Shown in pieces: positions 753 through 33,871 of a stretch of 64,000 bases of DNA. Location of the stretch: NCBI GenBank assembly GCA_016717325.1, contig JADKFV010000017.1:1533-65532 (forward strand), written 5' to 3'. This DNA is from Bacteroidota bacterium. Its GTDB lineage: Bacteria; Bacteroidota; Bacteroidia; AKYH767-A; OLB10. The notes under the pieces are model-generated. The model did not search any database and was not told the origin of the DNA. It worked only from the letters and a program-made list of their open reading frames with translations. Position 1 is the first letter of the stretch, and each line of letters starts with the position of its first letter. Both the position numbers and the translations under genes were made by a program.

Positions 753-1179
753 CTCAAATTTTATTAATGCCTAAAGAAAACACATTGCCCACAACACCAA
801 CAAAAATATTTTTTTTGAAGCTCAACGGTTTATCCTTTTTACAAACGGCTTGGTCCTGCTTTACGCTGCAATCTTTTTTTTCACCACGCACAAACCCGCA
901 TACAAAAAAAGGATTTCCGCTGCAATCAGGGCTAGTAAAAATAGCTTTGGCTTTGTAAAAACGTTTTAACATAAGCACACAATTGATTTAATGATAGAAG
1001 ATTGATTTCGTTTTACGATATAGATTTGCACAAACATTCTTTTCTTATAAAATATCAAATTGATTTTGTAGCTGAAAATAATTTTTAATCTATTTATGAG
1101 TTTCTGAATTGTAAATTTATGGATTATTAGAATAAATTTGTCAAAGTTGAATGCGAAATACATCGAACAAATTAAATAC

Positions 1180-3104: not shown

Positions 3105-3620
3105 TCACTGGAGAGATTGCTTCAGTCGTGCCTCCTTCGCGATGACGGGAGTGCATAAAATAATATCTGTATTCCTCCGTGTTCTCCGCGCCTCCGTGCG
3201 AAATGCATTTGAATTCCTCCGTGTTCTCTTTACCTCCGTGCGAAATGTATTTGCATTCTCAGTGCCACCATGCGAAAAATTTGACGCAAAGATTGCTTCA
3301 GTCGTACCTGCTTCTCGATGACGTAAGTGCCCAAAAAAACATTTGCATTCCTCCGTGTTCTCCACTCCTCTGTGCGAAACTTTTGCTTGCAGAGATTGCT
3401 TCAGTCGTACCTCCTTCGCAATGACGGGAGTGCATAAAATAATATCTGTATTCCTCCGTGTTCTCCGCGCCTCCGTGCGAAATGCATTTGAATTCCTCCG
3501 TGTTCTCTTTACCTCCGTGCGAAATGTATTTGCATTCTCAGTGCCACCATGCGAAAAATTTGATGCAGAGATTGCTTCAGTCGTTCCTCCTTCGCAATGA
3601 CGGAAGAAAAGAAATTTCAA
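3105..3620. repeat. Noncoding tandem repeat: about 285 bp duplicated twice, each copy holding 2.5 copies of a 42-bp subunit (TTCCTCCGTGTTCTC..CCTCCGTGCGAAATGCATTTG)
   Basis: Direct comparison of 3105-3392 with 3393-3600. Copies of the subunit also occur near 3800-3840 and 5758-5790. The 171-aa minus-strand ORF here shows the same duplication at protein level, so it is an artefact. Confidence 0.8.
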
Positions 3621-8179: not shown

Positions 8180-9601
8180 TTACAAAGTTAGTTTTTGGCC
8201 GTTGTAAAATTCCAATACTTTGATTCGAAAAATCAAATCGAATTTTGCCTGCAACAAATCGGACTGTGCACGGGTAGCATTATTTTTGGCTGTGAGATAT
8301 TCGAGCGATGTGCCCATACCGGCATTAAATTTCTTTTCGGAATAGCCCGATGATAAAAGTGCAGCGCTGTATGCTTTTTGTGCTGCGGCATATTTCAATT
8401 GTGCCGACTTTGCATCGAGGTGTGCTTGTTGTATGGTTTTAAAAATTTGCTGTTTCGTATTTTGCAAATCGACTTTGGTACGTGCCATATTTATTTTAGC
8501 ACGACTGATATTGCTGTGTGTACTCCATGCATTGAATATTGGAATTTGCAAACTAAGTCCAATGCCTTTATTCAAATTTTCGTTTACTTGTGTGTTGAAT
8601 GGAGTTTCTTCAAATACGGTTTTAAAACTTGGAGACAAAACAGTATCGAATGCAGATGTAATTTGCCCATTGGGCGCAAAGCCTGTAAATTGAGGTGTTC
8701 CGGCCAATCGCTTTGCACCACTCGAATAACCCGAACTTACACTACCAAACGCAGTGAGGCGTGGTGAGTAACCTCCGCGTGCAATTGACAATGCCGTACC
8801 GGCACTTTGGGAGCGGATTTCTGCAGCTTTCACTTCGGGCATAGCTCTTAATGCATTTTCATATATTTGATAAGCAGTAAATCCAACAATGCTTTGGTCG
8901 GCAAGTTCAAGATTAGGGTCTTCTATATCGAAATTATCGGCACTATCGAGATTCATTATTTGCACCAATGTAAGTAGCGATTGCTTCACAGAGTTTGAAG
9001 CATTTATTTGTTGCAATTCTTCTGATGCAACTTGCGCTTCCAAATCCATGAGACTTCCTTCGGCCAACACGCCCGCCAGCACTTGTTTCTTTATCACATC
9101 GCGTTGTTTTTCTATCGACTCAATACGCAATTTGGCGGCCTTCAGTTGTTCTTTACTAAACAATACCTGCAAGTATGACGATGCCACACTCAACGAAATA
9201 TCGTTAACCACTTTTTCTAAATCGTGCTTGCCGGCCTGGTAATCGAGCTTGCTTTGCTTTACAGTATTCATTAGTTGAAACCCATCGAACAATACCACAT
9301 TCCCACTCAGCGAAAGTTGTGTATTCGAAATTTGCTGATTGGTAAATTGATACGTGTATGGGTCAACAGAGCGGCCAAAATTTATATTCTGACTTGCGCT
9401 CCCATTTACAGATGGCAGCAATGCTGCTTTATTTTGAATAAGCGTAACACGAACGCCTTGCCCGGCAAGAGCCGATTGCTGCACCAGCAAATTATTATTC
9501 ATAGCATATTCAACGCATTCTTTTAGTGACCAACGTTGTTGTGCCTCCATATTGAAATGAAGTAGAAGGCATAGTGCGAAAACAGAAAATGTTCTAAGCA
9601 T
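8180..9601 (-). CDS. TolC-family outer membrane efflux protein
   Basis: 473 aa. Signal peptide, SLKECVEYAMNNN start and two-repeat TolC architecture. Adjacent to the adaptor. Confidence 0.85.
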   Translation of the reverse strand: MLRTFSVFALCLLLHFNMEAQQRWSLKECVEYAMNNNLLVQQSALAGQGVRVTLIQNKAALLPSVNGSASQNINFGRSVDPYTYQFTNQQISNTQLSLSGNVVLFDGFQLMNTVKQSKLDYQAGKHDLEKVVNDISLSVASSYLQVLFSKEQLKAAKLRIESIEKQRDVIKKQVLAGVLAEGSLMDLEAQVASEELQQINASNSVKQSLLTLVQIMNLDSADNFDIEDPNLELADQSIVGFTAYQIYENALRAMPEVKAAEIRSQSAGTALSIARGGYSPRLTAFGSVSSGYSSGAKRLAGTPQFTGFAPNGQITSAFDTVLSPSFKTVFEETPFNTQVNENLNKGIGLSLQIPIFNAWSTHSNISRAKINMARTKVDLQNTKQQIFKTIQQAHLDAKSAQLKYAAAQKAYSAALLSSGYSEKKFNAGMGTSLEYLTAKNNATRAQSDLLQAKFDLIFRIKVLEFYNGQKLTL

Positions 9602-9713
9602 AGTGGTTTTATTTCGAGGTAAAAGTATATATTGCCCTTTAATATTTTTACTTTATAAAAAGTTAATTTTAAGACACTTATAAAATGATATTGTTACAAA
9701 AAAGTAGTTATTA

Positions 9714-10670
9714 TTGTGTATGAGTAAATGGATAGAAACATTAGCGGCTAAATGGAAGCTTGACCCGGGCGAAAAGAGTAACATTGAAACCTACGAAAGC
9801 AAAAAACTTTTTTCCATTTATTATGAGTTACAAACGCTCATAACGGTTGGGGTTTTATTACTTGCTACTTCGGCAGGGATTTTTTTATATAAAAACATCG
9901 ACACTATAGGTCATTCCATTTTGGTATTGTTGACTGGCATTGCTGCTGTATCGTGTTTCGCATTTTGCATATTCAAAAAAGAAAAACAAGCAAACATTAC
10001 TTATTACGATAATGTTCTTTACCTCGGCTGCATGTTGCTTGTAAGTTGCGTTGGTTACTGGCAATATCAGTATGGTATTTTTGGCAATCATCATGCGTTT
10101 GCGATTTTAGTTCCGGCAATAATAATCACAGCATTTGCGTATTATTTTAACGACCGCGCCATTTTAAGTTTGGCTATTACACTTTGGGCCGGTTATTTAG
10201 GATTTACAATTTCGATACCGGCAATTTTGTATGGGCAAAATTTCAGATCGCTTCAACTTATCTTTACAGCAATTATATTTGCATGTGTGCTTATGGCATT
10301 GGCATATGCGCATTACCATTACAAAAAAAATCTTCCTTTTGGTTTTACTATTGCAAGCTTTGCTTTCCATATTATGTGTCTGGCATTGCTTGCAGGTATT
10401 TTTAATCAGCCTTATAGTTGGATTTGGGCAGCAACCCTCGTTGTTATTTGTTTTGCTGCTGTGCTATTTTCGTTGGTCGAGCAATCATATGCAACTTTTG
10501 TTTCGGCAGTGTTGTATACGTACATTGCTGTTTCTTATTTGTGTATCAATTTTTTGATGCATCATCACATTCTCGAGTCCACTTATTTTCTATTGATATA
10601 TTTTATTGCAACTTCCATTATGCTGATAAAATATATTCGTGAGGGAAAACAAAAATTATTTAAAGCCTGA
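9714..10670 (+). CDS. Polytopic integral membrane protein (possibly DUF2157-like)
   Basis: 318 aa. Soluble N-terminal about 40 aa followed by at least 8 hydrophobic helices. Translationally coupled to the next gene through a TGATG overlap at 10668-10672. Confidence 0.5.
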   Translation: MCMSKWIETLAAKWKLDPGEKSNIETYESKKLFSIYYELQTLITVGVLLLATSAGIFLYKNIDTIGHSILVLLTGIAAVSCFAFCIFKKEKQANITYYDNVLYLGCMLLVSCVGYWQYQYGIFGNHHAFAILVPAIIITAFAYYFNDRAILSLAITLWAGYLGFTISIPAILYGQNFRSLQLIFTAIIFACVLMALAYAHYHYKKNLPFGFTIASFAFHIMCLALLAGIFNQPYSWIWAATLVVICFAAVLFSLVEQSYATFVSAVLYTYIAVSYLCINFLMHHHILESTYFLLIYFIATSIMLIKYIREGKQKLFKA

Positions 10671-11845
10671 TGATTTATAATATAGAAAAACTGCGCAACA
10701 AATTATTGTTACCCATTGCTACAGAATGGATGGCAGAAAATGTAATGGATAAAAAGAATATTCCTTTACTAACACAAATGCAAAACGATGCATACAAACC
10801 ATCGCAAATAGCATTTCAGGTTGGGTTATTTTTGCTCACTTTTATTTTGGCTTTTTGCAGTGCCGGCCTGATTGCTATGTTTTTTGGATTTACAAATAGC
10901 AGCATGGCTTTCGGAATGATATGCTGTTTTTTTTCAATACTCAGTTTTGTTGCGGCCAATTATTTTATCAATACAAAATTGCATTTTAAAACCGGGGTCG
11001 ATACAGCCCTGTACTATTTTAGCATTATTAGCTTGATGCTTGGCATAGGTTTAATGCTCGATAATTTGTGGAACAATACCAGCACCCTCGTTGCTTTTTG
11101 TATGCTGTGCAGTGGGTTGCTTTTGCTTTACGCATTTCTGTTTTTCGATTTTGTGCTGGCCATGATTGCCATTATGGTATTTGCAACGGGATATGCAAAT
11201 GCCTTTTACGAAACAACAGCAATTATAAAACTTTGTGCCAGTTTACTTTTTCCATTTGTGTGTTTTGCTTTTTATAAAACCATACTCTATTTCGAATACA
11301 AAATGGATGTGGTATACCAAAACATTTTTCCTTATTGTAAATTCATGCTGGCAGTAGTTGCTTACATTGCTATCAACCGGTCGTTTATAAACGAAGTTTT
11401 TTTTGAGTATACTTTAAAATACCTCAATAAAAATGTGTTTGCTGCATTTTCTATTTTCTCTGTTGCATGGAGTTGGCTGCTTCCGTTAGTTTATATTTTT
11501 TACGGTTTATACAAAAACGAACGCTCGTTTCTTCTTGCGGGCATAACATGTATGGCATTGTTCATTTGTTCGATTCCGTATTTTCATCCTTCAGCTATTC
11601 CCGAAGTAATGATGCTGATAGGAAGTGTATCATGTTTTATTTTTGTTGGCCTGGCAAATTATTTTTTCAAAAACAATGCATGGAAAATAACACTACAAAA
11701 ATCGAAATACGATAGCGCAATCTTATCGAAAGAAATGCAAGGCATCATCCTGTCGCAAGCCATAGCAACCAAAACTATTTCGCAAGAAAGAACAGAATTT
11801 GGTGGTGGCAAGTTTGGTGGCGGGGGTGGTAGTGGGGAGTATTGA
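10670..11845 (+). CDS. Polytopic integral membrane protein (possibly DUF4401-like) with a Gly-rich C-terminal tail
   Basis: 391 aa, many TM helices. The C-terminus EFGGGKFGGGGGSGEY is encoded by G/T-rich DNA that runs straight into the GTATTGAG repeat arm. Confidence 0.5.
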   Translation: MIYNIEKLRNKLLLPIATEWMAENVMDKKNIPLLTQMQNDAYKPSQIAFQVGLFLLTFILAFCSAGLIAMFFGFTNSSMAFGMICCFFSILSFVAANYFINTKLHFKTGVDTALYYFSIISLMLGIGLMLDNLWNNTSTLVAFCMLCSGLLLLYAFLFFDFVLAMIAIMVFATGYANAFYETTAIIKLCASLLFPFVCFAFYKTILYFEYKMDVVYQNIFPYCKFMLAVVAYIAINRSFINEVFFEYTLKYLNKNVFAAFSIFSVAWSWLLPLVYIFYGLYKNERSFLLAGITCMALFICSIPYFHPSAIPEVMMLIGSVSCFIFVGLANYFFKNNAWKITLQKSKYDSAILSKEMQGIILSQAIATKTISQERTEFGGGKFGGGGGSGEY

Positions 11846-12030
11846 GATGTTTAGTATTGGGTATTGAGATGTTTAGTATTGAGACTTTGGGATTTTAGTA
11901 TTGAGACTGGTTGTATTGAGTATTGAGATTTTAGTGTTGAGACTTTGGAATTTTTGGAATTGAGATTTTTAGACTTTTGGTATTGGGATTATTGGATTTT
12001 TAGTTTTTGAATTTTTAATCTTTTAAGAAG
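11846..12030. repeat. Left arm of an IVS-like element: degenerate tandem (GTATTGAGA/TTTTAGTATTGGG)n low-complexity repeats
   Basis: Seen directly. It is the reverse complement of the 12540-12740 arm, sharing GACTTTTGGTATTGGG and GATTTTTAGTTTTTGA blocks. Confidence 0.75.
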
Positions 12031-12039
12031 AAATAGACG

Positions 12040-12415
12040 ATGCATAATTTTAAAAAACTACATGCTTGGAATGCTTCTATCGAAATGGTAACTGACGTAT
12101 ATAAATTCACAGAAACATTTCCCAAAACAGAAATCTATGGCTTAACAAATCAAATGCGGAGGTGTGCGGTTTCAATTTCATCAAATATTGCAGAAGGAGC
12201 TGGGAGGCCATCAAATCTAAAATTCAGAGTTTTTTTGGGGTACGCTTATGGGTCGAGTTGCGAATTAGAAACGTAAATGATTATCGCTAACAAATTAAAT
12301 TTCCTAAACTCCGAAACCCTCGAACGATTATCAGCAAGCCTAAGCGAAATACAAAAATGATTTTCAAACTATCGCAATCTTTAAAAGACGAAACCAAAAA
12401 ACAACCAAATTAAAT
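12040..12415 (+). pseudogene. Four-helix-bundle protein (23S rRNA intervening-sequence protein family) with an in-frame TAA at 12274-12276
   Basis: My translation gives ..FLGYAYGSSCELET*MIIANKLNFLNSETLERLSASLSEIQKMIFKLSQSLKDETKKQPN*. The family consensus has CELETQLII, so Q (CAA) has become TAA. The downstream frame is still intact. Confidence 0.75.
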
Positions 12416-12539
12416 GGCCTTCTAAATTTAAACTAAATCCAAAATCGAAAACTACCATTCTCTAAAAAATTCTACATAAAAAATACTCAATCCTAAATAT
12501 GTAAAAAACAATAGTTCCAATTCTTAAAATTTAAAAAAG

Positions 12540-12740
12540 TTCTGATACTGAAAAACTAAAAATCTCCACATAAAAAGTCTCAATACCCATTACTGTCAAT
12601 CTCAATACTCATAAACCAAAAGTCTCAATACCCAATAAAATCAATCTCAATACTCACAGTCTCAATACCCAATACTATCAATCTCAATACCCAATACCAA
12701 AAGTCTAAATACCCAATACTATCAATCTCAATACTAAAAA
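12540..12740. repeat. Right arm of the IVS-like element: (TCTCAATAC/CCCAATAC)n, reverse complement of the left arm
   Basis: Seen directly. Confidence 0.75.
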
Positions 12741-12746: not shown

Positions 12747-13730
12747 CTACTTCCCCGCCAAGGCGTTCTTTAATTTTGTAATTACGTTTACTTCTACAGC
12801 ATCTATTCCTTTCATATCGGCAAGGTAGCAACTTATCCAGTCGCCAATATGCACAAGGTAAAGGGTGCGTGCCAGTTTTGATTCACCTTTCGACCATACT
12901 TCAATAATTGTTGATGTTACATTCGAAGCTACTTCTTTGGTATAGTCAAGTCGTGTTTGGGTGCGTATATAGTCATCGTTGTTGCGCATAAAAATTACGG
13001 CAAGGTTTTCATTTTTTTCAACCCACCCTACCAATTCATTGTGATTCATTTCGGGCAATGCATGATGCCAGCAAAGCATTTTGGAATTCTCGTTTATCTG
13101 TTGACGGAACCGAACACATACTCCTTCGTAACCGGCATCGCTATATAGAACAGCAATTTTGCCCATTACTTTTTTTGCTACTTCCATAGCTTCGGCTTGA
13201 GTTGCTTCTTCATTGGCCTGGAGCATTTTTATGGCATCGTTTATTTCGCCTAAAAACTTATCGCTGCACAACCCTTTTTTATTCAGCACAAAAAACAATT
13301 GCGTGAATGAATAACCAAACATTGCGCGTGGTGGCATTCCTCCGGGAATAATAATATTTTCGATACCGTTGGTGCGTGCCAGGTCAATTATTTTTCCTCC
13401 CGAAGCCACACAAACTATTTGCGCACCTTTTTTTAATGCCACTTCAAAAGCCTGCACAGTTTCTTCGGTATTGCCCGAGTAGGAACAAACTATAACAAGT
13501 GTATGTTGATTGATAAATGCTGGCGGAAAATAATCTTTACATACTACAACCGGCACTGCAAGTTCCTGGTCTAAGCATTGCGCGGCTATAGTGCCACCTA
13601 TGCCCGACCCGCCAAGGCCTGTAATAAGCACATTACGAATTTCGATTTCCCGTTTTGCAATCGCAGCATTTTGTCCTATTTCGATTGCGGCACTAAGGTG
13701 GGCCGAAAAATCGGCAACTAAATTTTTCAT
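12747..13730 (-). CDS. Bifunctional phosphoglucose/phosphomannose isomerase (SIS domain)
   Basis: 327 aa. Motifs ITGLGGSGIGG and VCSYSGNTEET, and the overall PGI/PMI family layout. Confidence 0.75.
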   Translation of the reverse strand: MKNLVADFSAHLSAAIEIGQNAAIAKREIEIRNVLITGLGGSGIGGTIAAQCLDQELAVPVVVCKDYFPPAFINQHTLVIVCSYSGNTEETVQAFEVALKKGAQIVCVASGGKIIDLARTNGIENIIIPGGMPPRAMFGYSFTQLFFVLNKKGLCSDKFLGEINDAIKMLQANEEATQAEAMEVAKKVMGKIAVLYSDAGYEGVCVRFRQQINENSKMLCWHHALPEMNHNELVGWVEKNENLAVIFMRNNDDYIRTQTRLDYTKEVASNVTSTIIEVWSKGESKLARTLYLVHIGDWISCYLADMKGIDAVEVNVITKLKNALAGK

Positions 13731-19235: not shown

Positions 19236-19690
19236 TCTGTCCTCGGTTGGCGTCCCCGCCACCCGCCTTGCTGCATACATTATTTACATATAAACCAAAA
19301 TCATATGCTGCATTTGAGACAATCGATTTATTATCAAATCGCATTCTAGTGTATTGCTAAAAATCCGAAATAAATCATAGCAAAATATAAAAATTGCTGT
19401 GAAATATTTTTCGAAATAAGCGGGTGGCGGGGACGCCAACCGAGGACAAAGAAATCATTCAAAGCAGAATATAAAAATTGCTGTTATATTTTTTTGCAAA
19501 ATATGCGGGTGGCGGGGACGCCAACCGAGGACAAAATCGGAAATCATTCATAGTAGAGTTTAAAAATTGTTTTGAAATATTTTTGAGATGTAAGCGATTG
19601 GCAGGGACGCCAACCGAGGACAAGGAATTGCTTTGTAATGTTTTGAGAAATAAACGGGTGGCTGCGAAGACAACCGAAGACAAGCAAAAA
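19236..19690. repeat. GC-rich tandem array: 4 direct copies of an about 85-bp unit containing GCGGGTGGCGGGGACGCCAACCGAGGACAA, plus one inverted copy at 19236-19268
   Basis: Core copies at about 19420, 19504, 19591 and 19655 (degenerate). The AT-rich parts between cores are also similar to each other, so this is not CRISPR. The cores are GC-rich inside an AT-rich genome. Confidence 0.8.
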
Positions 19691-19806: not shown

Positions 19807-22800
19807 ATGAGTTATAAGAAAATAAACAACATTGTTGGTTGGGTTGTATTTGCAATTGCCTCGTACGTATATCTAACTACTATGGAGCCTACGGGCAGCT
19901 TTTGGGATTGTGGCGAATTTATTGCCTGTTGCAATGGCTTACAGGTGGGTCATCCTCCCGGTGCGCCTATGTTTATGTTGATGGGCCGTATGTTTATTTT
20001 ATTTGCTGGCGAAAATGTAAAACAAATACCACTAGCTATAAATGCTTTGTCGGCAATATGTAGTGCGCTGTGTATATTATTTTTGTTTTGGAGCATTACA
20101 CACCTTGCACGCAAAATGGTAGTGAAGGGTAAAAACGAACCTAACATGGGCGATATAATTGCCATAATGGGAAGTGGTTTTGTAGGCGCTATTGCTTATA
20201 CTTTTACCGATTCGTTTTGGTTTTCGGCCGTGGAGGGCGAGGTGTATGCAACCTCTGCAATGTTTACCGCAGTAGTGTTTTGGGCCATGTTGAAATGGGA
20301 GGAAGTGGCCGATGAAAAGCACAATGCACGATGGATAATTTTTATCGCCTTTATGATGGGCCTTTCTATTGGTGTCCATTTACTCAACTTGCTTGCCATA
20401 CCAGCATTGGCGCTCATTTATTATTTTAAGCGTTACAAATTTACATGGGTAGGCTTTGTAGCTGCACTGGGAGTTTCTATTGCCATTTTAGGTTTTGTAC
20501 AAAAAGGCATCATATCCTATTTTATAAAAATTGGTGCACAGTTCGATTTAATTTTTGTAAATAGTTTTGGCTTACCATTTTGGTCGGGCTTTATGTTTTA
20601 CCTGCTTGTTACCCTTGGAATAATTGCTTATGCACTGTGGTACACTACGCGCAAAGGTAAAGTGGTATTGAATACTGCCTTGCTCGCTGTTACATTTATT
20701 CTTATAGGATACTCATCCTATTCTGTGATAGTTATACGCAGCACGGCCAATCCTCCATTGGATGAAAACGATCCGGAAAATGTATTTTCACTTTTAAATT
20801 ATTTGGGTCGCGAGCAATATGGCGACTTTCCGTTAGCATACGGGCAATATTATAATGCAAAAACGATAGACTCGGATTTTAAAGATATGCAGTATGTAAA
20901 AAAAGACGGTAAATATGTAGAAGTAGGTCGCAAGGAATCGCCTGTTTACGATCCGGCTTTTTGTGGTATCTTTCCACGTATGTGGAGCCCACAAGATAAT
21001 CATGCAAGTTTTTACAAAAACTATCATAAAGGCAATGCTGAAGAACGACCTACAAGTGGCGAAAATATTTCTTTCTTTATCGACTATCAGGTAATGCACA
21101 TGTACTTCCGTTATTTTATGTGGAATTTTGTTGGCCGCCAAAACGATATACAAAGCTATAGCGACAACATTACCAAAGGCAATTGGATTAGCGGTATTAC
21201 TCCAATAGATAATATGCGCCTTGGCCCGCAAGAAAAATTGCCGCAAAGCATGACTAATAATAAAGGGCGCAACAAATTTTATTTCTTGCCTTTAATTTTA
21301 GGATTGGTGGGCTTTGCATACCAGGTACAAAAAAACCGTAAAGATTTTGTCATTGTAGGCATGTTGTTTTTTATGACAGGAATGGCCATTGTACTGTATG
21401 TAAATCAACCACCCTATCAACCGCGCGAGCGTGATTATGCTTATGCAGGATCGTTCTATGCTTTTTCGATGTGGATAGGATTGGGTGTGTTGGCCATTTT
21501 CGATTTGTTGCGTAATAAGTTAAGCCTTCCTACTGCTGGTGCGGCCATTGCAGCAACGGTAGTTTCGTGTTCGGTACCATATGTATTGTGTGCTGATGGA
21601 TGGAACGATCACAACCGTGCATTACGTTATACATCGCGCGATTTTGCCACTAATTATCTTAACTCGTGTGCACCCAATGCCATCATATTTACCAATGGCG
21701 ATAACGATACTTTCCCATTGTGGTATGCACAACAGGTAGAAGGGGTAAGGCGCGATATACGGATTGTAAACCTTAGTTTATTAAATACAGACTGGTATGT
21801 AAACCAAATGAAACGTCAGGAATACAATTCGCCACCGGTGCCATTTACACTTACATACGATAAGTACATGCAAGGCACACGCGATTATGTTCCATTTGTA
21901 GAACAAAAAAGTTTGTCGGCAAATTACACCGAGTTGAAACAGGTGTTTAATTTTATGACAAGCGAAAATCCCGAAACCAAAGTGCAGGTGCGCGATGGAA
22001 AATACATCAACTATTTGCCCACAAAAAAATTGCGCATCACTGTTGACAAAGCTGCAGTAATAAAAAGCGGAACGGTAGATATAAAAGACACAGCAAAAAT
22101 TGTTGATTATATAGATTGGGATATAAATAAAAGTTATGTGATGAAGGCCGACCTTATGATGCTGGACTTACTTGCACACAACGATTGGAAACGCCCCGTG
22201 TACTATGCCGTTACAGTTGGTAGCGACAATTATATTGGCCTTGACGATTATTTCCAACTCGAAGGTTTGGCTTATCGTTTTGTGCCAATAAAAACAAAAA
22301 ATGCTGACCAGCAAACCGGCCGTGTAGCTACCGATCTTATGTACAAAAACATGATGGATAAATTTGTGTGGGGCAATATGAAAAACGAAAAAGTGTACCT
22401 CGATCAAAATAATCTTAACATGACCATGAACTTCCGCAATAATTTTGCGCGCTTGTCGGAGTCGTTATTAAACGAAGGTAAGTCGACCCAATCGGTTGCT
22501 GTGCTTGATAAGTGTAACGAAGAAATGCCCGACAAAACAGTGCCTTACAATATGATGATGTTGCGCATAACCGAAATGTATTACCGCAATGCCATGCAGG
22601 CTGCAACTTCTGTTGATTCAACAGGAAGGCCAATCATCGATCCCGAAAAAATGAGCCAATCGCAAAAAGGAATTTTAGAAAAAGGCAACTCTATTTTGCG
22701 CAGACTTGCGGTGATATACGAAGACGATTTGAATTACTATTACTCTTTACGCGGCACAAAATATTTTGCTTTTATTGAAAAGGATATGAACCAATCGATG

Positions 22801-22911
22801 GCCATAATGAACGAAATGGTGCGGTTGTCGAAACTTACAAATCAGCCGGCCATTATTAAAGAAATGGAAGATGCATATGGTAATGTAATGAAAAAATATC
22901 AGGGTAATTAA
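19807..22911 (+). CDS. DUF2723-domain giant membrane protein (putative glycosyltransferase, TMEM260-like)
   Basis: 1034 aa. N-terminal polytopic region with the SFWDCGEFIA motif and a large C-terminal soluble region. Typical Bacteroidota DUF2723 architecture. Confidence 0.75.
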   Translation: MSYKKINNIVGWVVFAIASYVYLTTMEPTGSFWDCGEFIACCNGLQVGHPPGAPMFMLMGRMFILFAGENVKQIPLAINALSAICSALCILFLFWSITHLARKMVVKGKNEPNMGDIIAIMGSGFVGAIAYTFTDSFWFSAVEGEVYATSAMFTAVVFWAMLKWEEVADEKHNARWIIFIAFMMGLSIGVHLLNLLAIPALALIYYFKRYKFTWVGFVAALGVSIAILGFVQKGIISYFIKIGAQFDLIFVNSFGLPFWSGFMFYLLVTLGIIAYALWYTTRKGKVVLNTALLAVTFILIGYSSYSVIVIRSTANPPLDENDPENVFSLLNYLGREQYGDFPLAYGQYYNAKTIDSDFKDMQYVKKDGKYVEVGRKESPVYDPAFCGIFPRMWSPQDNHASFYKNYHKGNAEERPTSGENISFFIDYQVMHMYFRYFMWNFVGRQNDIQSYSDNITKGNWISGITPIDNMRLGPQEKLPQSMTNNKGRNKFYFLPLILGLVGFAYQVQKNRKDFVIVGMLFFMTGMAIVLYVNQPPYQPRERDYAYAGSFYAFSMWIGLGVLAIFDLLRNKLSLPTAGAAIAATVVSCSVPYVLCADGWNDHNRALRYTSRDFATNYLNSCAPNAIIFTNGDNDTFPLWYAQQVEGVRRDIRIVNLSLLNTDWYVNQMKRQEYNSPPVPFTLTYDKYMQGTRDYVPFVEQKSLSANYTELKQVFNFMTSENPETKVQVRDGKYINYLPTKKLRITVDKAAVIKSGTVDIKDTAKIVDYIDWDINKSYVMKADLMMLDLLAHNDWKRPVYYAVTVGSDNYIGLDDYFQLEGLAYRFVPIKTKNADQQTGRVATDLMYKNMMDKFVWGNMKNEKVYLDQNNLNMTMNFRNNFARLSESLLNEGKSTQSVAVLDKCNEEMPDKTVPYNMMMLRITEMYYRNAMQAATSVDSTGRPIIDPEKMSQSQKGILEKGNSILRRLAVIYEDDLNYYYSLRGTKYFAFIEKDMNQSMAIMNEMVRLSKLTNQPAIIKEMEDAYGNVMKKYQGN

Positions 22912-26502: not shown

Positions 26503-27524
26503 GATAATCTATTGCATTATTATTAAAATTGTAACACCTCCGAAAAGTACAATATTTTTAACAACGATATACTTTTACCAAAATTTATTTGGTTACCATT
26601 ATAAAAACCTTGCACCTATTTCAACTAACAAGTTGTGCCTTTAAATATTATCAAATCGCTTCTTATAAAAAAGAAATAACCATTATAAGTGGAAATATAT
26701 TGTGCGCATTATTTACCATTAACTTTGCAATATGACCAACAAAATATTTTTTTACATTACTATTAAAGTGATATATCACAAAAGAAGGTTTCTTACTTTT
26801 ATTTTACTTGAGGCATCTAAACTGATATGGTTTTGAACCACGAAAAAATTTGTAAATAAATCATCATCACTTTATTTACTTACCTCTCATATCATTTATT
26901 TATTGGATTGTAAATATATTTAAGCACGGTGCCGATTCAAGCAAAGAAAATATTTTCAAGATAAACCTGCGTGGATTTTTTGGGCTTCAATTCGGCCACC
27001 GCTTGCAATCTACTTTTGCCGGATAAGCCTTAGTAAATTTTATTTGATTCAATTAACTCTTCCTGCCATTTCAATAATTTTATAGCATATACTTTTTTAC
27101 TTACGTTTTCTATTATGTAACATAAGCATTATAAAATGAAAACTACCCTTCGTTAAAATCTATTGTAAATCCATGAACGACAGGGTTTTTGTGAATACAA
27201 CATATTAAGGTTAAAAGATAGTCAGCAATATAAGCGCGCTTTTCAATAATATTTTCAAGAAACAAACTCCCGTTGTGAACCACAACTTTATTAAATGTAT
27301 TTGTTTACGAATTCAAAGAAATGGCGCCAGAAATTGTTTCAAGGTGATTTTTGTAAATGATGCAGGAGGGTTTCTTTTAACTGATTTTGCCATTACGATT
27401 TATTGGAGGTGATATTCATGTTTATTTTCTTCTTCTGTTTCTATATATCACAAAACAATCCCGATTGGGATTAAAACAGGAATCATCTCAATGAGTGACG
27501 TGGCATTTATTTTTCTGAGAGAAT

Positions 27525-29778: not shown

Positions 29779-29785
29779 TTTCTTA

Positions 29786-29860
29786 GTATTGAGTAATTAG
29801 TAGTTAGTACTTAGTATTGAGTATTTTGTAGTTTGTTGTTTGTATTGAGTAGTTATTATT
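29786..29860. repeat. Low-complexity (GTATTGAGTA/GTAGTTAGTA)n arm; partner arm at 30360-30455
   Basis: Seen directly. Together the two arms form inverted arms around the 4HB ORF at 29921-30274. Confidence 0.7.
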
Positions 29861-29920
29861 TAGCTTTATGACCATGCAGTTGGTATTGAACGATATTTTT
29901 GGTGTACTTAACAAATGTAT

Positions 29921-30274
29921 TTAAGATTTTAAAGATTGCATCAATTTATAAATCATTTTTTCAATCTCATTTAAATTATAGGTTAACTTTGTTTGATCTT
30001 CTGAACTCATAAAATTTAAATTACAGGCAATGATTAATTGAGTTTCTAATTCACAACAAGAGCCATAAGCCTATCCTAAAAATAATTTGAATTCTCCAAT
30101 TCCCTTTCTGCCTGCCCCTTCAGCTATATTTGATGGAATAGAAACAGCACACCTGCGCATTTGATTTGTTAATCCATATGTTTCTGTTTTCGGAAACGAT
30201 TCCGTAGTCTTATAAATTTCAGTTACCAGGTTAATAGCTGAAATCCAAACATTCAATTTTTTAAAATCATGCAT
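29921..30274 (-). pseudogene. Four-helix-bundle protein (IVS protein family) with an in-frame TAG after codon 67
   Basis: Translation ..EFKLFLG*AYGSCCELETQLIIACNLNFMSSEDQTKLTYNLNEIEKMIYKLMQSLKS*. The paralog at 12040 has FLGYAYGSSCELET at this point, so Tyr (TAY) has become TAG. The downstream frame is conserved. Confidence 0.7.
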
Positions 30275-30359
30275 TTCTAACTATTTTTTTCAATATTGAA
30301 GAATAACTACTCATAACCATTTTACTCAATTTTAAATACTGCATCCTCACCACAAACAT

Positions 30360-30455
30360 TATTTTCTCAATACCATTTACTCTATAATAAGTACTAAATA
30401 CTAATTACCAATTACCCAATACTAAGCACCCAATACCAATTACCCAATACCAATT
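30360..30455. repeat. Low-complexity (CCCAATACCAATTA)n arm, reverse-complement type
   Basis: Seen directly. Confidence 0.7.
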
Positions 30456-31320
30456 ACAACTCCGTCAACCTACCATAAGTCTCTGGTCTTCTATCTCTAA
30501 AGAATTGCCATACCGAACGTACTTCATCTATCATATCTAAATCAAAATCCGCAACTAAAAGTTCATCATTGTCTTCGGATGCTTGTGCAAAAATTTGTCC
30601 GCGAGGATCAACGAAATAACTGCTACCATAAAACTTGCCTACGCTCCATGGCTTTTCAATTCCTACACGATTAATGCATCCCATAAAATATCCATTGGCT
30701 GCAGCATGTGCAGGTTGTTCCAACTTCCATAAATATTGCGAAAGGCCTGCAACCGTAGCCGATGGATTGTAAACAATTTCGGCACCATTCAAACCAAATG
30801 CACGTGCACCTTCGGGAAAATGACGATCGTAACAAATGTAAACGCCCACTTTTGCATAGCGCGTTTGAAAAACCGGATAACCTAAATTACCGGGCTTGAA
30901 GAAAAATTTTTCCCAAAAACCTGAAGTGTGCGGAATATGATTTTTGCGATACTTACCAAGGTAAGTTCCATCAGCATCAATCACTGCGGCAGTGTTATAC
31001 AATACTCCGGCTTGCTCCTTTTCGTAAATAGGAACAATGATTACCATGCTATATTTTTTCGCATAGGTCTGCATCAGTTCAGTTGTAGGGCCGGGAACAG
31101 TTTCGGCACTTGCATACCATTTTGCATCTTGCCCTGGGCAAAAATATGGCGTGTTAAAAATTTCCTGCAGACACAAAATCTGCACGCCTTTTTTCCCTGC
31201 TTCTTCAATCAAGGGAATATGCTTTGCAACCATTGCATCTACAATTTCCTTAATGGTGCCTTCGCCCTCTGTTTTGGGCAACGACATTTGGATTAATCCT
31301 GATTTTATTATTCGTGACAT
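30454..31320 (-). CDS. Beta-ureidopropionase / N-carbamoyl-beta-alanine amidohydrolase (nitrilase superfamily)
   Basis: 288 aa. Carbon-nitrogen hydrolase fold with catalytic Glu-Lys-Cys context (VGVYICYDRHFPE). Sits between dihydropyrimidinase and preT. Confidence 0.8.
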   Translation of the reverse strand: MSRIIKSGLIQMSLPKTEGEGTIKEIVDAMVAKHIPLIEEAGKKGVQILCLQEIFNTPYFCPGQDAKWYASAETVPGPTTELMQTYAKKYSMVIIVPIYEKEQAGVLYNTAAVIDADGTYLGKYRKNHIPHTSGFWEKFFFKPGNLGYPVFQTRYAKVGVYICYDRHFPEGARAFGLNGAEIVYNPSATVAGLSQYLWKLEQPAHAAANGYFMGCINRVGIEKPWSVGKFYGSSYFVDPRGQIFAQASEDNDELLVADFDLDMIDEVRSVWQFFRDRRPETYGRLTEL

Positions 31321-31341
31321 AGTTATTATGTTGTTAAGTTA

Positions 31342-31732
31342 TTATGTTGTTTGGTTCTTTTGAATAATCAAATCCTTTTCGATTTTTGCTTTTTTAAGAT
31401 ATGCGATATAGCCATTCAATATTTTTAAACATGTCGCAAATATTTCTTTTTGTTCATTAAATACTTTTTCGCAGATATATTTTTCGTCCATAGCACAAAT
31501 CAAATGTTCCATATAAAGAGCCTCTTGCCATTCGGCAAAAACGAATATTATCTTGATGATTAAATCTTCCAAATCCTTCCGCGATATTTGCTGATATAGA
31601 TCTCGAAGAACGAATGATCTGATCTGTTAATCTATATTTTTCTTCTGCCGGAAACGACTTTGCAATTATTGAGAATGAAATTCTTAACTCTCGAGCACTT
31701 TGCCATACAGCCAACTCCTCAAAACTATTCAT
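31342..31732 (-). pseudogene. Four-helix-bundle protein (IVS protein family) split by a frameshift
   Basis: N-terminal 31457..31732 reads MNSFEELAVWQSARELRISF..ISANIAEGFGRF. The family C-terminus (EHLICAMDEKYICEKVFNEQKEIFATCLKILNGYIAYLKKAK) is in the overlapping ORF 31342..31572, in another frame. Flanked by TTATTATGTTG and CCCAATAAC arms. Confidence 0.65.
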
Positions 31733-31801
31733 TTTTTTTATTTTTATAATTCAGCACAATACAGAACAAACAAAAGCTCAACAGCCCAATAACCCAATAA
31801 C

Positions 31802-33184
31802 TTAAATTATTCCACTTACCTTTTTCCTTTTCACGAACACTCCGTATCCTTTTTTAATTTTCACATCGCCATTATCTATTGCAAGTTGTCCGCGCAAAAT
31901 TGTTTTCTCTACTTTGCCTTTCAACTTCCATCCTTCGTATGCAGAATAGTCGACATTCATGTGATGTGTTTTTGCAGAAATGGTATGTTCTTTATTGGGA
32001 TCGAAAATAATAATATCGGCATCGCTGCCAACTGCTATACATCCTTTCTTTGGAAACATACCAAATATTTTTGCTGCATTTGTTGATGTAACCTCTACAT
32101 ATTTATTGAGCGATATTCTACCTGTGTTTACTCCTTCATTAAAAAGTAATTCCATACGATTTTCTATTGCAGGATGTCCGTTTGGAATTTTCGAAAAATC
32201 TTTTTCTCCCAATAATTTTTTCTCCCATGTAAATGGGCAATGGTCAGTAGCTACCACTTGTACTGTTCCTTGATTGATACCTGCCCATAAAGTTTCCTGA
32301 TCTTTTTTCTGCCGAAGTGGAGGACTCATCACCCACTTGGCACCATCAAAATCTTTTTCGTACAACGATGCATCGAGAATTAAATATTGAATACATGTTT
32401 CAGCAAAAACTTTTTGATTTCTTTTTTCCACATCGCGAATATGATTGAGTGCACCCTCACAAGTCATGTGCACTACATATGCAGGGACACCCGTATAATT
32501 TGCCATGTCGGCAAAACGTCCTGTAGCTTCGGCCTCGGTAATTTCGGGTTGCGATAAATAATGATACAATGGTGATAGCTTTCCTTCGGAACGATGTTTT
32601 GCAATTAAAAAATCGATCATATCGCCATTGGTTGCATGAACGGTAACAATACCACCTTGCAATTTTACTTCATTCATAAGACCAACCATCTGCCTGTCAT
32701 CTATCATTAATGCACCTTTGTAAGCCATAAAAGTTTTGAAAGATACGATGCCCTCTTCCTCCACCATCTCTTTGATTTCTTTTTTAGTATCGTCATTAAA
32801 ATCCGTAACAGCCATATGAAAAGAATAATCGCCATAGCAATTTCCATTGCTGCGGCCTTGCCATTCGCGCAAAGCATTGTGTAACGATTTACCTTGCGTT
32901 TGCAAAATAAAATCAATCACCATGGTTGTGCCGCCATGCAATGCAGCAAGTGTTCCTGTTTCATAATTATCGCTCGAGAATGTTCCCATAAAAGGCATAT
33001 CGAGATGAACGTGTGGATCTATTCCTCCGGGAAAAACAAATTTTCCAGCAGCATCAATTATTGTATCGGCATCGTTCGAAATATTTTTTCCGATTGCAGA
33101 AATTGTTTCGCCCTCCACAAAAATATCAGCAACGTAATCATCCGATGCTGTTATCACTCTTCCGTTTTTAATTAATATTGACAT
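31802..33184 (-). CDS. Dihydropyrimidinase (D-hydantoinase family cyclic amidohydrolase)
   Basis: 460 aa. MSILIKNGRVIT..GGIDPHVHLDMPF metal-binding HxH motif and the overall hydantoinase fold. Confidence 0.85.
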   Translation of the reverse strand: MSILIKNGRVITASDDYVADIFVEGETISAIGKNISNDADTIIDAAGKFVFPGGIDPHVHLDMPFMGTFSSDNYETGTLAALHGGTTMVIDFILQTQGKSLHNALREWQGRSNGNCYGDYSFHMAVTDFNDDTKKEIKEMVEEEGIVSFKTFMAYKGALMIDDRQMVGLMNEVKLQGGIVTVHATNGDMIDFLIAKHRSEGKLSPLYHYLSQPEITEAEATGRFADMANYTGVPAYVVHMTCEGALNHIRDVEKRNQKVFAETCIQYLILDASLYEKDFDGAKWVMSPPLRQKKDQETLWAGINQGTVQVVATDHCPFTWEKKLLGEKDFSKIPNGHPAIENRMELLFNEGVNTGRISLNKYVEVTSTNAAKIFGMFPKKGCIAVGSDADIIIFDPNKEHTISAKTHHMNVDYSAYEGWKLKGKVEKTILRGQLAIDNGDVKIKKGYGVFVKRKKVSGII

Positions 33185-33260
33185 CTGTTATTTGTTATTT
33201 AGTTATTGGTTAATGTGTTATTTGGTTAATGTGTTATTGGTTATTCTGTTATTTGGTTAT
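33185..33260. repeat. Low-complexity (GTTATTTGGTTAATGT)n arm. Partner arm 33395-33440 and a similar tract 33872-33925.
   Basis: Seen directly. The loop between the arms (33260-33395) carries no ORF. Confidence 0.55.
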
Positions 33261-33439
33261 TGTGTTACTAAGTTGCTGCCATTTTCTTCGAGTGTTATTC
33301 CATATGGATGATATTTAGAAATTCAATTTTTTTGAAGTGTTATTAAATTTTAGTAGCATTGATCATCTTTTTCTGCAAAGGAATTACTCTTTTTAAATCC
33401 CGACAACCCAACAACCTAACAAATAAAACAACTCAACAA

Positions 33440-33871
33440 CTACACCCCAATATCCTCATTCCACAACTCTGGCTTTTCGGCAATAAAATTACGCATCATT
33501 TGCTTGCATTCTTCACTGTTATAATTTATAACTTCCACACCATGCGAAAGCATAAATTCCTTTGCGCCTTCAAATGTTTCATCCTCCCCGGCATATACTT
33601 TTTTAATTCCAAATTGAACAACGGCACCGGCACATAAATAGCAGGGCATAAGTGTAGAATATAAAACAGCGCCCTTGTAATTTCCCACCCGGCCGGCATT
33701 GCGCAAGCAATCTATTTCGGCATGTGTTACAGGGTCGCCATCTTGCACACGTTTGTTATGACCTCGTCCTATTATTATTCCATCACGCACCAATACCGAA
33801 CCTATAGGTATACCTCCCTCACTTATTCCTTGTCTTGCTTCGGCTATTGCCGCATTCATAAACTCATCCAT
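33440..33871 (-). CDS. Yeast-type (Fcy1-like) cytosine deaminase, CDA-fold nucleoside deaminase
   Basis: 143 aa. GGIPIGSVL, RGHN, HAEIDCL, LYSTLMPCYLCAGAV and the C-terminal PELWNEDIGV closely parallel the S. cerevisiae Fcy1 layout (..PQDWFEDIGE). Confidence 0.7.
   Translation of the reverse strand: MDEFMNAAIAEARQGISEGGIPIGSVLVRDGIIIGRGHNKRVQDGDPVTHAEIDCLRNAGRVGNYKGAVLYSTLMPCYLCAGAVVQFGIKKVYAGEDETFEGAKEFMLSHGVEVINYNSEECKQMMRNFIAEKPELWNEDIGV

What the first reader, a model, noticed from the sequence alone, without database searches (positions are those of the whole stretch)
11846..12740. IVS-like elements: four-helix-bundle ORFs sitting between long inverted low-complexity arms, dispersed in intergenic DNA
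Each of three four-helix-bundle genes lies in the loop between a (GTATTGAGA)n-type arm and its reverse complement. The family was first described inside 23S rRNA intervening sequences. The elements are 11846-12030 / 12040-12415 / 12540-12740, then 29786-29860 / 29921-30274 / 30360-30455, then 31322-31345 / 31342-31732 / 31740-31800. The arms are 75-200 bp and share recognisable blocks such as GACTTTTGGTATTGGG. This is the architecture of rRNA intervening sequences, where an RNase III-cleavable stem flanks the ORF, but here it is scattered between protein-coding genes. Empty copies with arms but no ORF also exist, for example 33185-33440. This suggests a mobile or at least proliferating IVS-derived element family.
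Basis: partly seen in the sequence, partly recalled or inferred. Interest (0 to 1): 0.7.

Follow-up and report, generated by a model that had tools for sequence, protein, structure and literature searches.

The report
IVS-like four-helix-bundle cassettes between genes
Small gene cassettes of the kind first seen splitting ribosomal RNA (a four-helix-bundle gene closed off by a long stem of 7-8-base repeats) sit here between ordinary protein genes. The same design surrounds this gene family in many bacterial phyla, which makes an old puzzle about these "intervening sequences" open to experiment.

Summary

- **Gene content.** The window holds three PF05635/TIGR02436 four-helix-bundle (4HB) genes.
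- **Arms.** Each gene lies between a G-rich and a complementary C-rich array of 7-8-nt tandem repeats. The arms pair far better than chance for el1 (z -7.9) and el2 (z -4.9). They do not for el3 or for the ORF-less site at 33185-33439.
- **Insertions.** Relatives with the same gene order have empty sites. At the el1 site the two flanking stop codons overlap, and the operon junctions are only 15-60 nt long.
- **Generality.** In 145 further loci from many phyla, about two thirds of 4HB genes carry abutting inverted arms (49/77 and 48/65 above a 5% control level). Repeat periods are almost only 7, 8 and their multiples. None of the 80 genome loci lies in rRNA. Near-identical copies, arms plus ORF, occur in unrelated contexts with abrupt homology ends. 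The protein is under purifying selection elsewhere (dN/dS 0.03-0.21).
- **Known relatives.** The Coxiella 23S IVS also carries heptamer repeats. Cyanobacterial STRR hairpins resemble the ORF-less form.
- **Likely mechanism (inferred).** The stem insulates or excises the cassette from host transcripts, probably through RNase III. How the cassette moves is unknown.

I rate this a new variant of a known kind.

The parts
11839..12030 (+). el1 5' arm: G-rich, C-poor array of GTATTGAGA-type 7-nt units. The first unit contains the TGA stop (11843-11845) of the upstream gene.
   Evidence: TRF rows. Inverted repeats. The stem is in both the MFE and the centroid structure.
12040..12415 (+). el1 four-helix-bundle pseudogene (PF05635/TIGR02436), with an in-frame TAA at 12274 and a frameshift near 12354.
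12416..12736 (+). el1 3' arm: an A/C-rich stretch pairing with the inner part of the 5' arm (12416-12572), then a TCTCAATAC/CCCAATAC array (12573-12736).
   Evidence: A 205-nt alignment of the arms at 70% identity.
10670..11845 (+). Upstream host gene (391-aa membrane protein). Its native Gly-rich tail and its stop codon abut the arm.
12747..13730 (-). Convergent host gene (bifunctional phosphoglucose/phosphomannose isomerase). In relatives L170/L171 its stop codon overlaps the stop codon of the membrane-protein gene, so that site is empty.
30275..30457 (-). el2 5' arm and spacer on the coding (-) strand. The array is at 30384-30457 (GGTATTGGGTAATTGG type) and starts right after the beta-ureidopropionase stop (30454).
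29924..30274 (-). el2 four-helix-bundle pseudogene with an in-frame TAG.
29779..29923 (-). el2 3' arm. The array at 29782-29863 (CTCAATAC/TACTAA type on the - strand) ends at the PreT start codon (29778).
31733..31805 (-). el3 5' side: a short array (GTTATTGG x2 on the - strand) after the dihydropyrimidinase stop.
   Evidence: Not above background.
31345..31732 (-). el3 four-helix-bundle pseudogene with a frameshift near 31520. It is 53% identical to the intact copy in L001.
31321..31359 (-). el3 3' side: a 16-nt unit x2 that overlaps the ORF end and abuts the beta-ureidopropionase start (31320).
33185..33439 (-). ORF-less copy between the deaminase and dihydropyrimidinase genes. It has arrays at 33399-33441 (GTTGTTGGG type on the - strand) and 33183-33267 (CAATAACA type), and no trace of a 4HB ORF.
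   Evidence: Complementarity is not above background. The same junction is 45 nt long in L003.

Best explanation
**What it is.** These are copies of an IVS-type insertion cassette. Each is a PF05635/TIGR02436 four-helix-bundle gene enclosed by two mutually complementary arrays of 7-8-nt tandem repeats. The G-rich array lies on the 5' side and the C-rich array on the 3' side. The cassette fills the spacer between two host genes, from the upstream stop codon to the next start codon (or to the next stop codon where the genes converge).

**Shown here.**
- The cassettes are insertions relative to syntenic relatives.
- Arms and ORF travel together as one unit of about 0.5 kb.
- The same design surrounds this gene family in many phyla, outside rRNA.
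- The window's own copies are decaying: three pseudogenes and one ORF-less relic.

**Inferred.**
- The cassette has no detectable promoter of its own, so it is transcribed as part of the host transcript.
- The arms then pair into a long double-stranded stem whose base brings the upstream stop and the downstream start together.
- As shown experimentally for rRNA intervening sequences, RNase III probably cuts such a stem. That would excise or insulate the cassette, so that insertion into a transcribed spacer (an operon junction or an rRNA helix) does little harm.
- Melting of the stem base by a terminating ribosome could also keep the downstream gene translationally coupled.

**Not known.** How the cassette moves. 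It encodes no transposase.
For: **Family membership.**

**Stems in the window.** el1 z -7.9 and el2 z -4.9. Inverted-repeat scores are 77 and 37, against 12.3 +/- 3.0 for other genes of the window.

**Empty sites in relatives.**
- L170/L171 keep the order GT5-PGI >< membrane protein-DUF2157, with the two convergent stop codons overlapping.
- L167, 92% identical in DNA, loses homology exactly at the stop codon, window 11845.
- L003 and L005 have 15-60-nt operon junctions.
- L001 has an intact 137-aa 4HB gene with (GATTGGT)n/(ACCAATC)n arms of roughly 200-300 nt at the el2 junction.

**Generality.**
- 49/77 genome loci and 48/65 metagenome loci exceed the 95th percentile of a cross-locus control.
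- The arms abut the ORF.
- Repeat periods near the ORF are 7 (193 rows), 14 (60), 8 (49), 21 (23) and 16 (10). Array density is 6.7/kb near the ORF against 0.42/kb further away.
- 0/80 genome loci lie in rRNA.

**Movement as a unit.**
- Alignment A2 shows abrupt homology ends just outside the arms.
- Arm 8-mer sharing rises with protein identity even where no flanking gene is shared: 6.9 against about 1.0-1.4.
- L001 holds three copies with shared arm sequence.

**Stem base.** The 5' arm starts a median of 1 nt after the upstream stop. The 3' arm ends a median of 6 nt before the next ATG.

**Transcription.**
- The upstream neighbour is co-directional in 69/81 loci.
- There is no terminator-like site in el1 or el2. 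The scan's only terminator-like hit inside an element is a weak hairpin within the el3 ORF, not above the shuffle expectation.
- The Bacteroidota promoter motif is not enriched.

**Protein.** It is functional elsewhere, with dN/dS 0.03-0.21.

**Precedent.** The Coxiella 23S IVS has a terminal stem, heptamer repeats and an S23p ORF that is decaying, and RNase III excision was shown (PMC4990558).
Against: - RNase III cleavage, and any RNA-level role at all, is untested here.
- Arm mismatches show no bias toward G:U on the sense strand (70 G:U against 98 A:C).
- Sense and antisense folds are equally stable (75 against 74 loci). Complementarity could therefore be kept at the DNA level.
- el3 and the ORF-less site do not pair above background.
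- About a third of 4HB loci lack detectable arms, and one Nostoc plasmid copy has non-complementary arrays.
- No transposase, target-site duplication or other mobility machinery was found.
- Long retention at the same junction across genera fits a host-useful element as well as a selfish one.
Confidence: 0.75

Rival explanations
1. The repeat hairpins are host intercistronic elements, like the STRR hairpins of cyanobacteria, that serve mRNA stability or translational coupling. On this view they are primary residents of operon junctions, and the 4HB genes are secondary passengers that land in, or recombine into, their loops.
For: - ORF-less arm pairs are frequent. 79/272 other gaps in the same loci carry period-7/8 arrays.
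- STRR 7-bp hairpins between co-transcribed genes (hupS-hupL) are documented, with those proposed roles (PMC2670836).
- The same junction is occupied by unrelated 4HB lineages: W2-type against the L001 c3-type, 36% identical.
- Junction occupancy is conserved across genera, with clusters of 13, 8, 7 and 5 loci.
Against: - Empty sites in relatives have no hairpin at all.
- Arm sequence tracks the protein lineage across unrelated junctions.
- Copies in different contexts share arms plus ORF with abrupt ends.
- One ORF-less copy in L001 still holds a 4HB remnant, so at least some empty copies are decayed cassettes.
Confidence: 0.15
2. The arms act as DNA rather than RNA. They would be long quasi-palindromes, kept complementary by template switching or gene conversion, that serve as recombination or inversion substrates or as recognition structures for an unidentified trans-acting enzyme.
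For: - There is no sense-strand G:U bias.
- Sense and antisense fold energies are equal.
- A 4HB remnant lies in inverted orientation between arms in L001.
- Synteny breaks exactly at the arm in a 92%-identical relative.
Against: - Orientation is strongly biased toward co-transcription with the neighbours.
- The stem base is positioned at the stop and start codons.
- Proven RNA-level processing of the homologous rRNA IVS argues for an RNA role.
- Arm sequences differ widely between lineages, which does not fit a sequence-specific enzyme.
Confidence: 0.08
3. The pattern is a chance or compositional artefact: ordinary low-complexity spacers of an AT-rich genome that happen to lie next to three small ORFs.
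For: el3 and the ORF-less site are not distinguishable from background by fold z-score or inverted-repeat score.
Against: - el1 and el2 lie 8-21 SD above the other genes of the window.
- Period-7/8 arrays occur only at these sites in 64 kb.
- The pattern was replicated in two independent collections.
Confidence: 0.02

Closest known systems
23S rRNA intervening sequences (IVS) with an S23p/four-helix-bundle ORF (Coxiella burnetii, Leptospira, Xanthomonas; PMC4990558)
   Same: - The same protein family (PF05635).
- An ORF enclosed by terminal inverted repeats that form a stem.
- Tandem heptamer repeats next to the stem, with variable copy number.
- A size of about 0.4-0.9 kb.
- An ORF prone to decay.
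- No transposase.
- A sporadic distribution.
   Different: - These copies lie between protein-coding genes (operon junctions, convergent gene ends), not in helix 25/45 of 23S rRNA.
- The arms are longer and are built almost wholly of 7-8-nt repeats.
- RNase III excision is shown for the rRNA IVS and is only inferred here.
STRR (short tandemly repeated repetitive) heptamer hairpins of filamentous cyanobacteria, e.g. between hupS and hupL (PMC2670836)
   Same: - 7-bp tandem repeats that can form a hairpin.
- A position between co-transcribed genes.
- Unknown function, with mRNA stability or translational coupling proposed.
- They match the ORF-less copies here, and a Calothrix 4HB gene is flanked by such arrays.
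   Different: - STRRs are described as ORF-less and specific to cyanobacteria.
- As far as the searched literature shows, they have not been linked to 4HB genes.
- Here the host is a Bacteroidota bacterium, and the same design appears in many phyla.
Avd, the accessory protein of diversity-generating retroelements
   Same: A homologous four-helix-bundle fold and Pfam clan. There are weak hits to bAvd (PF22296) and DivGenRetAVD.
   Different: - The scores are far below the family cut-offs (21 against 40 bits, and 21 against 80 bits).
- No reverse transcriptase or template/variable repeat lies next to any copy.
MITEs and REP/REPIN elements
   Same: - Short and non-autonomous.
- Intergenic.
- Inverted-repeat termini.
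- Several copies per genome.
   Different: - The termini are not conserved between lineages.
- They are tandem-repeat arrays, not defined TIRs.
- No cognate transposase (RAYT or IS) was found.
- No target-site duplication is seen.
- The cassette carries a conserved ORF under purifying selection.

Membership tests
PF05635 / TIGR02436 four-helix-bundle protein (23S_rRNA_IVP) | Profile HMM score above the curated cut-off | tested here: met
   Pfam gives 122, 127.9 and 93.5 bits against a cut-off of 33.8. TIGR02436 gives 123 and 84.4 bits against a cut-off of 24. The PDB relative 2GSC (Xanthomonas XCC0516) matches at E 2.5e-24.
PF05635 / TIGR02436 four-helix-bundle protein (23S_rRNA_IVP) | Intact open reading frame | tested here: not met
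   All three window copies carry in-frame stops or frameshifts. Copies in other genomes are intact, with dN/dS 0.03-0.21.
rRNA intervening sequence (IVS) | Inserted in a 23S (or 16S) rRNA gene helix | tested here: not met
   The flanks are protein-coding genes. Rfam finds no rRNA in the window or in the 80 genome loci.
rRNA intervening sequence (IVS) | Terminal inverted repeats forming a stem that encloses the insert | tested here: met
   Met for el1 and el2. Weak or not significant for el3 and the ORF-less copy.
rRNA intervening sequence (IVS) | Excision from the transcript by RNase III without re-ligation | not testable with these tools
   This needs RNA data. It was shown for Coxiella (PMC4990558).
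rRNA intervening sequence (IVS) | Tandem heptamer repeats beside the stem (Coxiella type) | tested here: met
   Period 7/8/14/16 arrays lie at all four sites.
Cyanobacterial STRR hairpins | Tandem 7-bp repeats able to form a hairpin between co-transcribed genes | tested here: met
   The definition is taken from PMC2670836.
Cyanobacterial STRR hairpins | Occurrence in filamentous cyanobacteria with the STRR consensus units | tested here: not met
   The host is a Bacteroidota bacterium (Flavo-1 RNA). The units differ from locus to locus. The STRR consensus sequences themselves were not compared.
Transposon-like element (IS/MITE) | Conserved terminal inverted repeats, a target-site duplication and a cognate transposase | tested here: not met
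   The arms differ between lineages. No duplication is evident at the A2 boundaries. No transposase is in or beside the elements.
Diversity-generating retroelement (Avd component) | Avd equivalog score, plus an adjacent reverse transcriptase and TR/VR repeats | tested here: not met
   DivGenRetAVD scores 20.6 bits against a cut-off of 80. bAvd scores 21.5 against 40. The neighbours are metabolic genes.
Intrinsic terminator | A G+C-rich hairpin followed by a U run | tested here: not met
   No terminator-like site falls in the arms of any element, and none at all in el1 or el2. The one hit inside an element is a weak hairpin within the el3 ORF, and the region's count (4) is close to the shuffle expectation (2.1 +/- 1.3). 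The 3' arms are followed by A- or C-rich sequence.

The most novel reading that the evidence does not exclude
Four-helix-bundle cassettes with heptamer-repeat stems may form one pan-bacterial class of transcript-embedded selfish elements. The classic rRNA intervening sequences and the cyanobacterial STRR hairpins would then be special cases: one in a different host transcript, the other a decayed form.

On this reading they spread through an RNA intermediate. The stem-bounded RNA released by RNase III would be copied and re-inserted with the help of the Avd-like 4HB protein, which recruits a cellular reverse transcriptase. The tandem-repeat arms would be a by-product or a requirement of that cycle.
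Probability: 0.12. Interest if true: 0.9.

Novelty: new variant of a known kind. Interest (0 to 1): 0.7.

Why it matters
Intervening sequences of rRNA and their conserved ORF have gone unexplained since about 1990. The PF05635 family is very large: more than 15,000 clusters at 50% identity matched a 78-residue fragment. It includes the DGR factor Avd, yet its free-standing members have no known role.

This work shows that the usual home of these genes is an IVS-like stem at operon junctions, in many phyla. It also shows that the ORF is under purifying selection and that the unit has moved between contexts.

Three consequences follow:
- Three separate curiosities (the rRNA IVS, 'four helix bundle protein' genes and STRR hairpins) become one testable system.
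- Tractable hosts are available. Cultured species among the loci found here include Flavobacterium, Pedobacter and Sphingobacterium.
- Genome annotation should take note: stem-bounded inserts inside operons may split transcripts.

Tried and rejected
1. **Repeat unit copied from the end of the upstream gene.** The el1 stop codon sits inside a GTATTGA unit, which suggested this. The best 8-mer match is 5.54 against 5.38 in a control matched for stop codon, p 0.36. Rejected as a general rule.
2. **Sense-strand RNA selection seen as excess G:U over A:C mismatches.** Not found: 70 against 98. Sense and antisense fold energies are also equal.
3. **An internal Bacteroidota promoter (TAnnTTTG) upstream of the 4HB ATG.** Found in 5/72 loci against 4.5 expected. 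The sigma-70 and terminator scans are not enriched either.
4. **A vestigial 4HB ORF in the 'empty' site.** None was found with a family HMM at E up to 100.
5. **Period 7/8 explained by the need for stop codons in all three frames.** There is only a moderate bias: 43/66 units on the sense strand against 31/66 on the reverse, and stops in all three frames in 33/54 against 15/54. This does not explain the pattern.
6. **A defence-system link.** There are no PADLOC hits.
7. **Carriage by phages or plasmids.** No phage record matched. Only 32 plasmid records matched, mostly cyanobacterial megaplasmids.
8. **Close relatives of the window's own 4HB copies.** None above 60% identity turned up in the genome or metagenome scans. 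The exact dihydropyrimidinase is not on record.
9. **RNAduplex on 350-nt flanks.** The run timed out and was replaced by a blastn-based inverted-repeat score.
10. **Literature.** No paper in the held library describes non-rRNA 4HB genes with repeat arms. Absence from this library does not prove novelty.
Full report
**1. What is in the window**

The window is about 36% G+C. It carries a Flavo-1 RNA. One of its proteins is 100% identical to an nr entry named 'Bacteroidota bacterium'.

tblastn and a family HMM run on the six-frame translation find exactly three members of PF05635 (23S_rRNA_IVP) / TIGR02436 ('four helix bundle protein'). They lie at 12040-12415 (+), 29924-30274 (-) and 31345-31732 (-).

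All three are disrupted:
- c1 has TAA in place of the Q of the ELETQ motif, plus a frameshift near its end.
- c2 has TAG in place of a conserved Y.
- c3 has a frameshift in mid-gene.

The roughly 40 other long ORFs of the window are intact. I therefore read these lesions as real decay, not sequencing error. That cannot be proved from one sequence.

**2. The arms**

The rest of the 64 kb has only weak hits of these periods.

On the coding strand each element reads as follows:
- the upstream stop codon;
- a G-rich, C-poor array (GTATTGAGA, GGTATTGGG, GTTATTGG, GTTGTTGGG);
- a spacer;
- the 4HB ORF, or no ORF at the fourth site;
- a C-rich, G-poor array that is the reverse complement;
- the next gene.

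The whole-element RNA folds give these results:

| Site | MFE against shuffles (kcal/mol) | z | Inverted-repeat score |
|---|---|---|---|
| el1 | -223.3 against -162.2 +/- 7.8 | -7.9 | 77 |
| el2 | -160.9 against -127.0 +/- 7.0 | -4.9 | 37 |
| el3 | not different | 0.0 | 14 |
| ORF-less site | -46.5 against -40.9 +/- 4.3 | -1.3 | 13 |

The folds are. The inverted-repeat scores come from a blastn comparison of the 400 nt on either side. The same score for 43 other genes of the window is 12.3 +/- 3.0, with a maximum of 26.

It rests on repeat type and polarity alone for el3 and the 'empty' copy.

**3. They are insertions**

*el1.* Contigs L170 and L171 have a PGI 79% identical to the window's. 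They keep the gene order glycosyltransferase-PGI, then convergently the membrane protein and DUF2157. The two convergent stop codons overlap in the sequence TTAA, so there is no spacer at all. The window has 901 nt at that place. L167 is 91.8% identical in DNA to window 9435-11845. Its homology stops exactly at the stop codon at 11845.

*el2, el3 and the ORF-less copy.* All three lie inside a reductive pyrimidine-catabolism operon on the minus strand: deaminase, dihydropyrimidinase, beta-ureidopropionase, PreT, PreA. In L003/L004 and L005 the same junctions are 15-60 nt long and have no repeats.

In L001/L002 the beta-ureidopropionase|PreT junction holds an intact 137-aa 4HB gene. It is flanked by arms of roughly 200-300 nt made of (GATTGGT)n and (ACCAATC)n, which also include a non-repetitive complementary segment.

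**4. The design is general for this gene family**

I collected 80 loci from one-genome-per-species contigs and 80 from metagenomes.

*Inverted repeats.* The best inverted repeat between the two flanks exceeds the 95th percentile of a cross-locus control in 49 of 77 testable genome loci and 48 of 65 testable metagenome loci. In the metagenome set the median arm is 33 nt long, ends 27 nt before the ATG and begins 10 nt after the stop.

*Taxa.* The loci come from Bacteroidota, Acidobacteriota, Desulfobacterota, Planctomycetota, Chloroflexota, candidate-phyla-radiation groups, Firmicutes, Gammaproteobacteria and one archaeal MAG.

*Repeat periods.* Within 150 nt of the ORF the periods are 7 (193 TRF rows), 14 (60), 8 (49), 21 (23) and 16 (10). 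Every other period has six rows or fewer. Array density is 6.7 per kb near the ORF and 0.42 per kb more than 400 nt away.

*Repeat units.* The unit differs from locus to locus: GTATTGA, GAGATAT, TAGCCAG, GGGAATA, CGTGAAA, GGTTAGT and others. The two arms of one element still match each other and not the arms of other elements. This amounts to covariation at the scale of whole arms.

*Composition.* The 5' gap has G>C in 59 of 72 informative loci. The 3' gap has C>G in 52 of 59.

*rRNA.* None of the 80 genome loci lies in rRNA.

*Orientation.* The upstream neighbour is co-directional in 69 of 81 loci. Both neighbours are co-directional in 54 of the 84 loci analysed.

*Stem base.* In 30 loci with two co-directional neighbours and clear arms, the 5' arm starts a median of 1 nt after the upstream stop. 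The 3' arm ends a median of 6 nt before the next start codon.

**5. Mobility and persistence**

*Movement as a unit.* Five copies (L041, L103, L105, L113, L115) are 75-91% identical in protein and sit in unrelated flanks. Their DNA homology begins about 30 nt before the 5' arm and ends just after the 3' arm. The unit that moved is therefore arms plus ORF, about 0.5 kb.

*Arms track the protein.* Across all pairs, sharing of arm 8-mers rises with protein identity. This holds for the 131 pairs at 60% identity or more that share no flanking gene. Their mean is 6.9 shared 8-mers, against 1.0-1.4 for more distant pairs.

*Several copies in one genome.* L001 holds three copies that share arm sequence. 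One has lost its ORF. Another keeps only a truncated 4HB remnant, which lies on the opposite strand.

*Recurrent junctions.* Some junctions are occupied again and again:
- 13 loci at a FadB-like|thiolase junction;
- 8 at thiolase|acyl-CoA dehydrogenase;
- 7 at beta-ureidopropionase|PreT, including el2;
- 5 upstream of an RluD-like gene.

Within the pyrimidine junction, six occupants are of the c2 type (49-79% identical to one another). The L001 occupant is of the c3 type, 35-41% identical to them and 53% to el3. This shows both long retention and re-occupation of the same junction.

*Selection.* The 4HB ORFs of closely related copies have dN/dS of 0.03-0.21. The protein is therefore under purifying selection in general, unlike in this window.

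*ORF-less pairs.* They are common: 79 of 272 other gaps in these loci carry period-7/8 arrays, against 163 of 204 gaps next to a 4HB gene.

**6. How it probably works**

The following is shown:
- the anatomy;
- the insertion polymorphism;
- movement as a unit;
- selection on the protein elsewhere;
- decay in this window.

The rest is inferred. No terminator-like site lies in the arms of any element, and the Bacteroidota -7 promoter motif is not enriched ahead of the ORF. The elements are also co-oriented with their neighbours. They are therefore most likely transcribed within host transcripts.

The arms would then form a long duplex whose base sits at the upstream stop codon and the downstream start codon. 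For the homologous rRNA elements, RNase III cuts such a stem and releases the insert. That was shown for Coxiella, whose IVS also carries 2-3 tandem GACAGAT heptamers and a decaying S23p ORF (PMC4990558).

By analogy, the stem here would excise or insulate the cassette so that the flanking genes still work. A ribosome terminating at the stem base could also open the downstream initiation region, which would preserve translational coupling. Both roles have been proposed for cyanobacterial STRR hairpins (PMC2670836).

I put about 0.5 on RNase III processing specifically. I put about 0.85 on the broader statement that these are IVS-type 4HB cassettes that entered as insertions.

*Evidence that cuts against a purely RNA-level view.* Mismatches between arms are not biased toward G:U on the sense strand (70 against 98). 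Sense and antisense folds are equally stable. Register ambiguity in tandem repeats weakens both tests.

*What remains unknown.* The way the element moves is unknown. It has no transposase, no conserved termini across lineages and no clear target duplication. The role of the protein is also unknown. It is a homologue of DGR Avd (PMC10053308), which makes a link to reverse transcription a lead. It is no more than that.

**7. Comparison with known systems**

*rRNA IVS.* The elements share the IVS design but fail its defining location, so they are not rRNA IVS in the strict sense.

*STRR hairpins.* The ORF-less form matches the description of STRR hairpins, but in a different phylum. A Calothrix plasmid 4HB gene is flanked by (TTAGCTG)3 and (AGCTAAA)4. 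A Nostoc plasmid copy has heptamer arrays that are not complementary.

*Systems ruled out.* The elements are not DGR components, MITEs, integron cassettes or terminators (see the membership table). There are no hits to defence-system models and no matches in phage genomes.

*Literature.* Full-text searches found no paper that describes the non-rRNA copies as stem-bounded cassettes. The held library is incomplete, so this is not proof of novelty.

**8. Verdict**

The finding is real, and its interpretation is largely right. It also extends well beyond the window.

What the window adds is a decaying set: three pseudogenes and one ORF-less relic, with three of the four elements in one catabolic operon.

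I rate it a new variant of a known kind, with interest 0.7.

Noticed in passing
window 848-937 (-): A Flavo-1 RNA (RF01705) scores 74 bits. The same motif lies about 2 kb from the 4HB elements in L023 and L070.
   Followed up: no
window 26503-28469: The PreT|PreA junction of the pyrimidine operon holds an insert of about 2 kb. It consists of a 314-aa ORF (27525-28469, -) with no Pfam or NCBIfam hit, plus about 1 kb of AT-rich non-coding DNA. In relatives PreT and PreA are 40-280 nt apart.
   Followed up: partly
window 3171-3537: Tandem repeats with periods of 42 and 103 nt (unit ATTCCTCCGTGTTCTCCGCACCTCCGTGCGAAATGCATTTGA), partly under an ORF on the minus strand.
   Followed up: no
window 19360-19623: Three copies of an 89-nt unit upstream of the 1034-aa gene at 19807-22911.
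   Followed up: no
L001 405-10550: Nearly every junction of the pyrimidine operon in this metagenome contig carries 7/8/16-nt arrays. One copy (10113-10550) has a truncated 4HB remnant on the opposite strand between arms homologous to those of the intact copy. This suggests inversion between the arms.
   Followed up: partly
L001 8173-8586 compared with window 29924-30274: The same beta-ureidopropionase|PreT junction is occupied by unrelated 4HB lineages, 36% identical. The L001 gene is closer (53%) to window el3 at the neighbouring junction.
   Followed up: partly
L172 (Nostoc PCC 7120 plasmid gamma) 620-1100 and L173 (Calothrix plasmid) 550-1100: Cyanobacterial 4HB genes also have heptamer arrays. 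The arrays are complementary in Calothrix. In the Nostoc copy, which lies next to an ISL3 transposase, they are not.
   Followed up: partly
L007-L086, gaps on either side of the 4HB ORF: The G-rich arm is always on the 5' side and the C-rich arm on the 3' side. The 5' arrays are moderately enriched in stop triplets on the sense strand and the 3' arrays on the antisense strand. The reason for this polarity is unexplained.
   Followed up: partly
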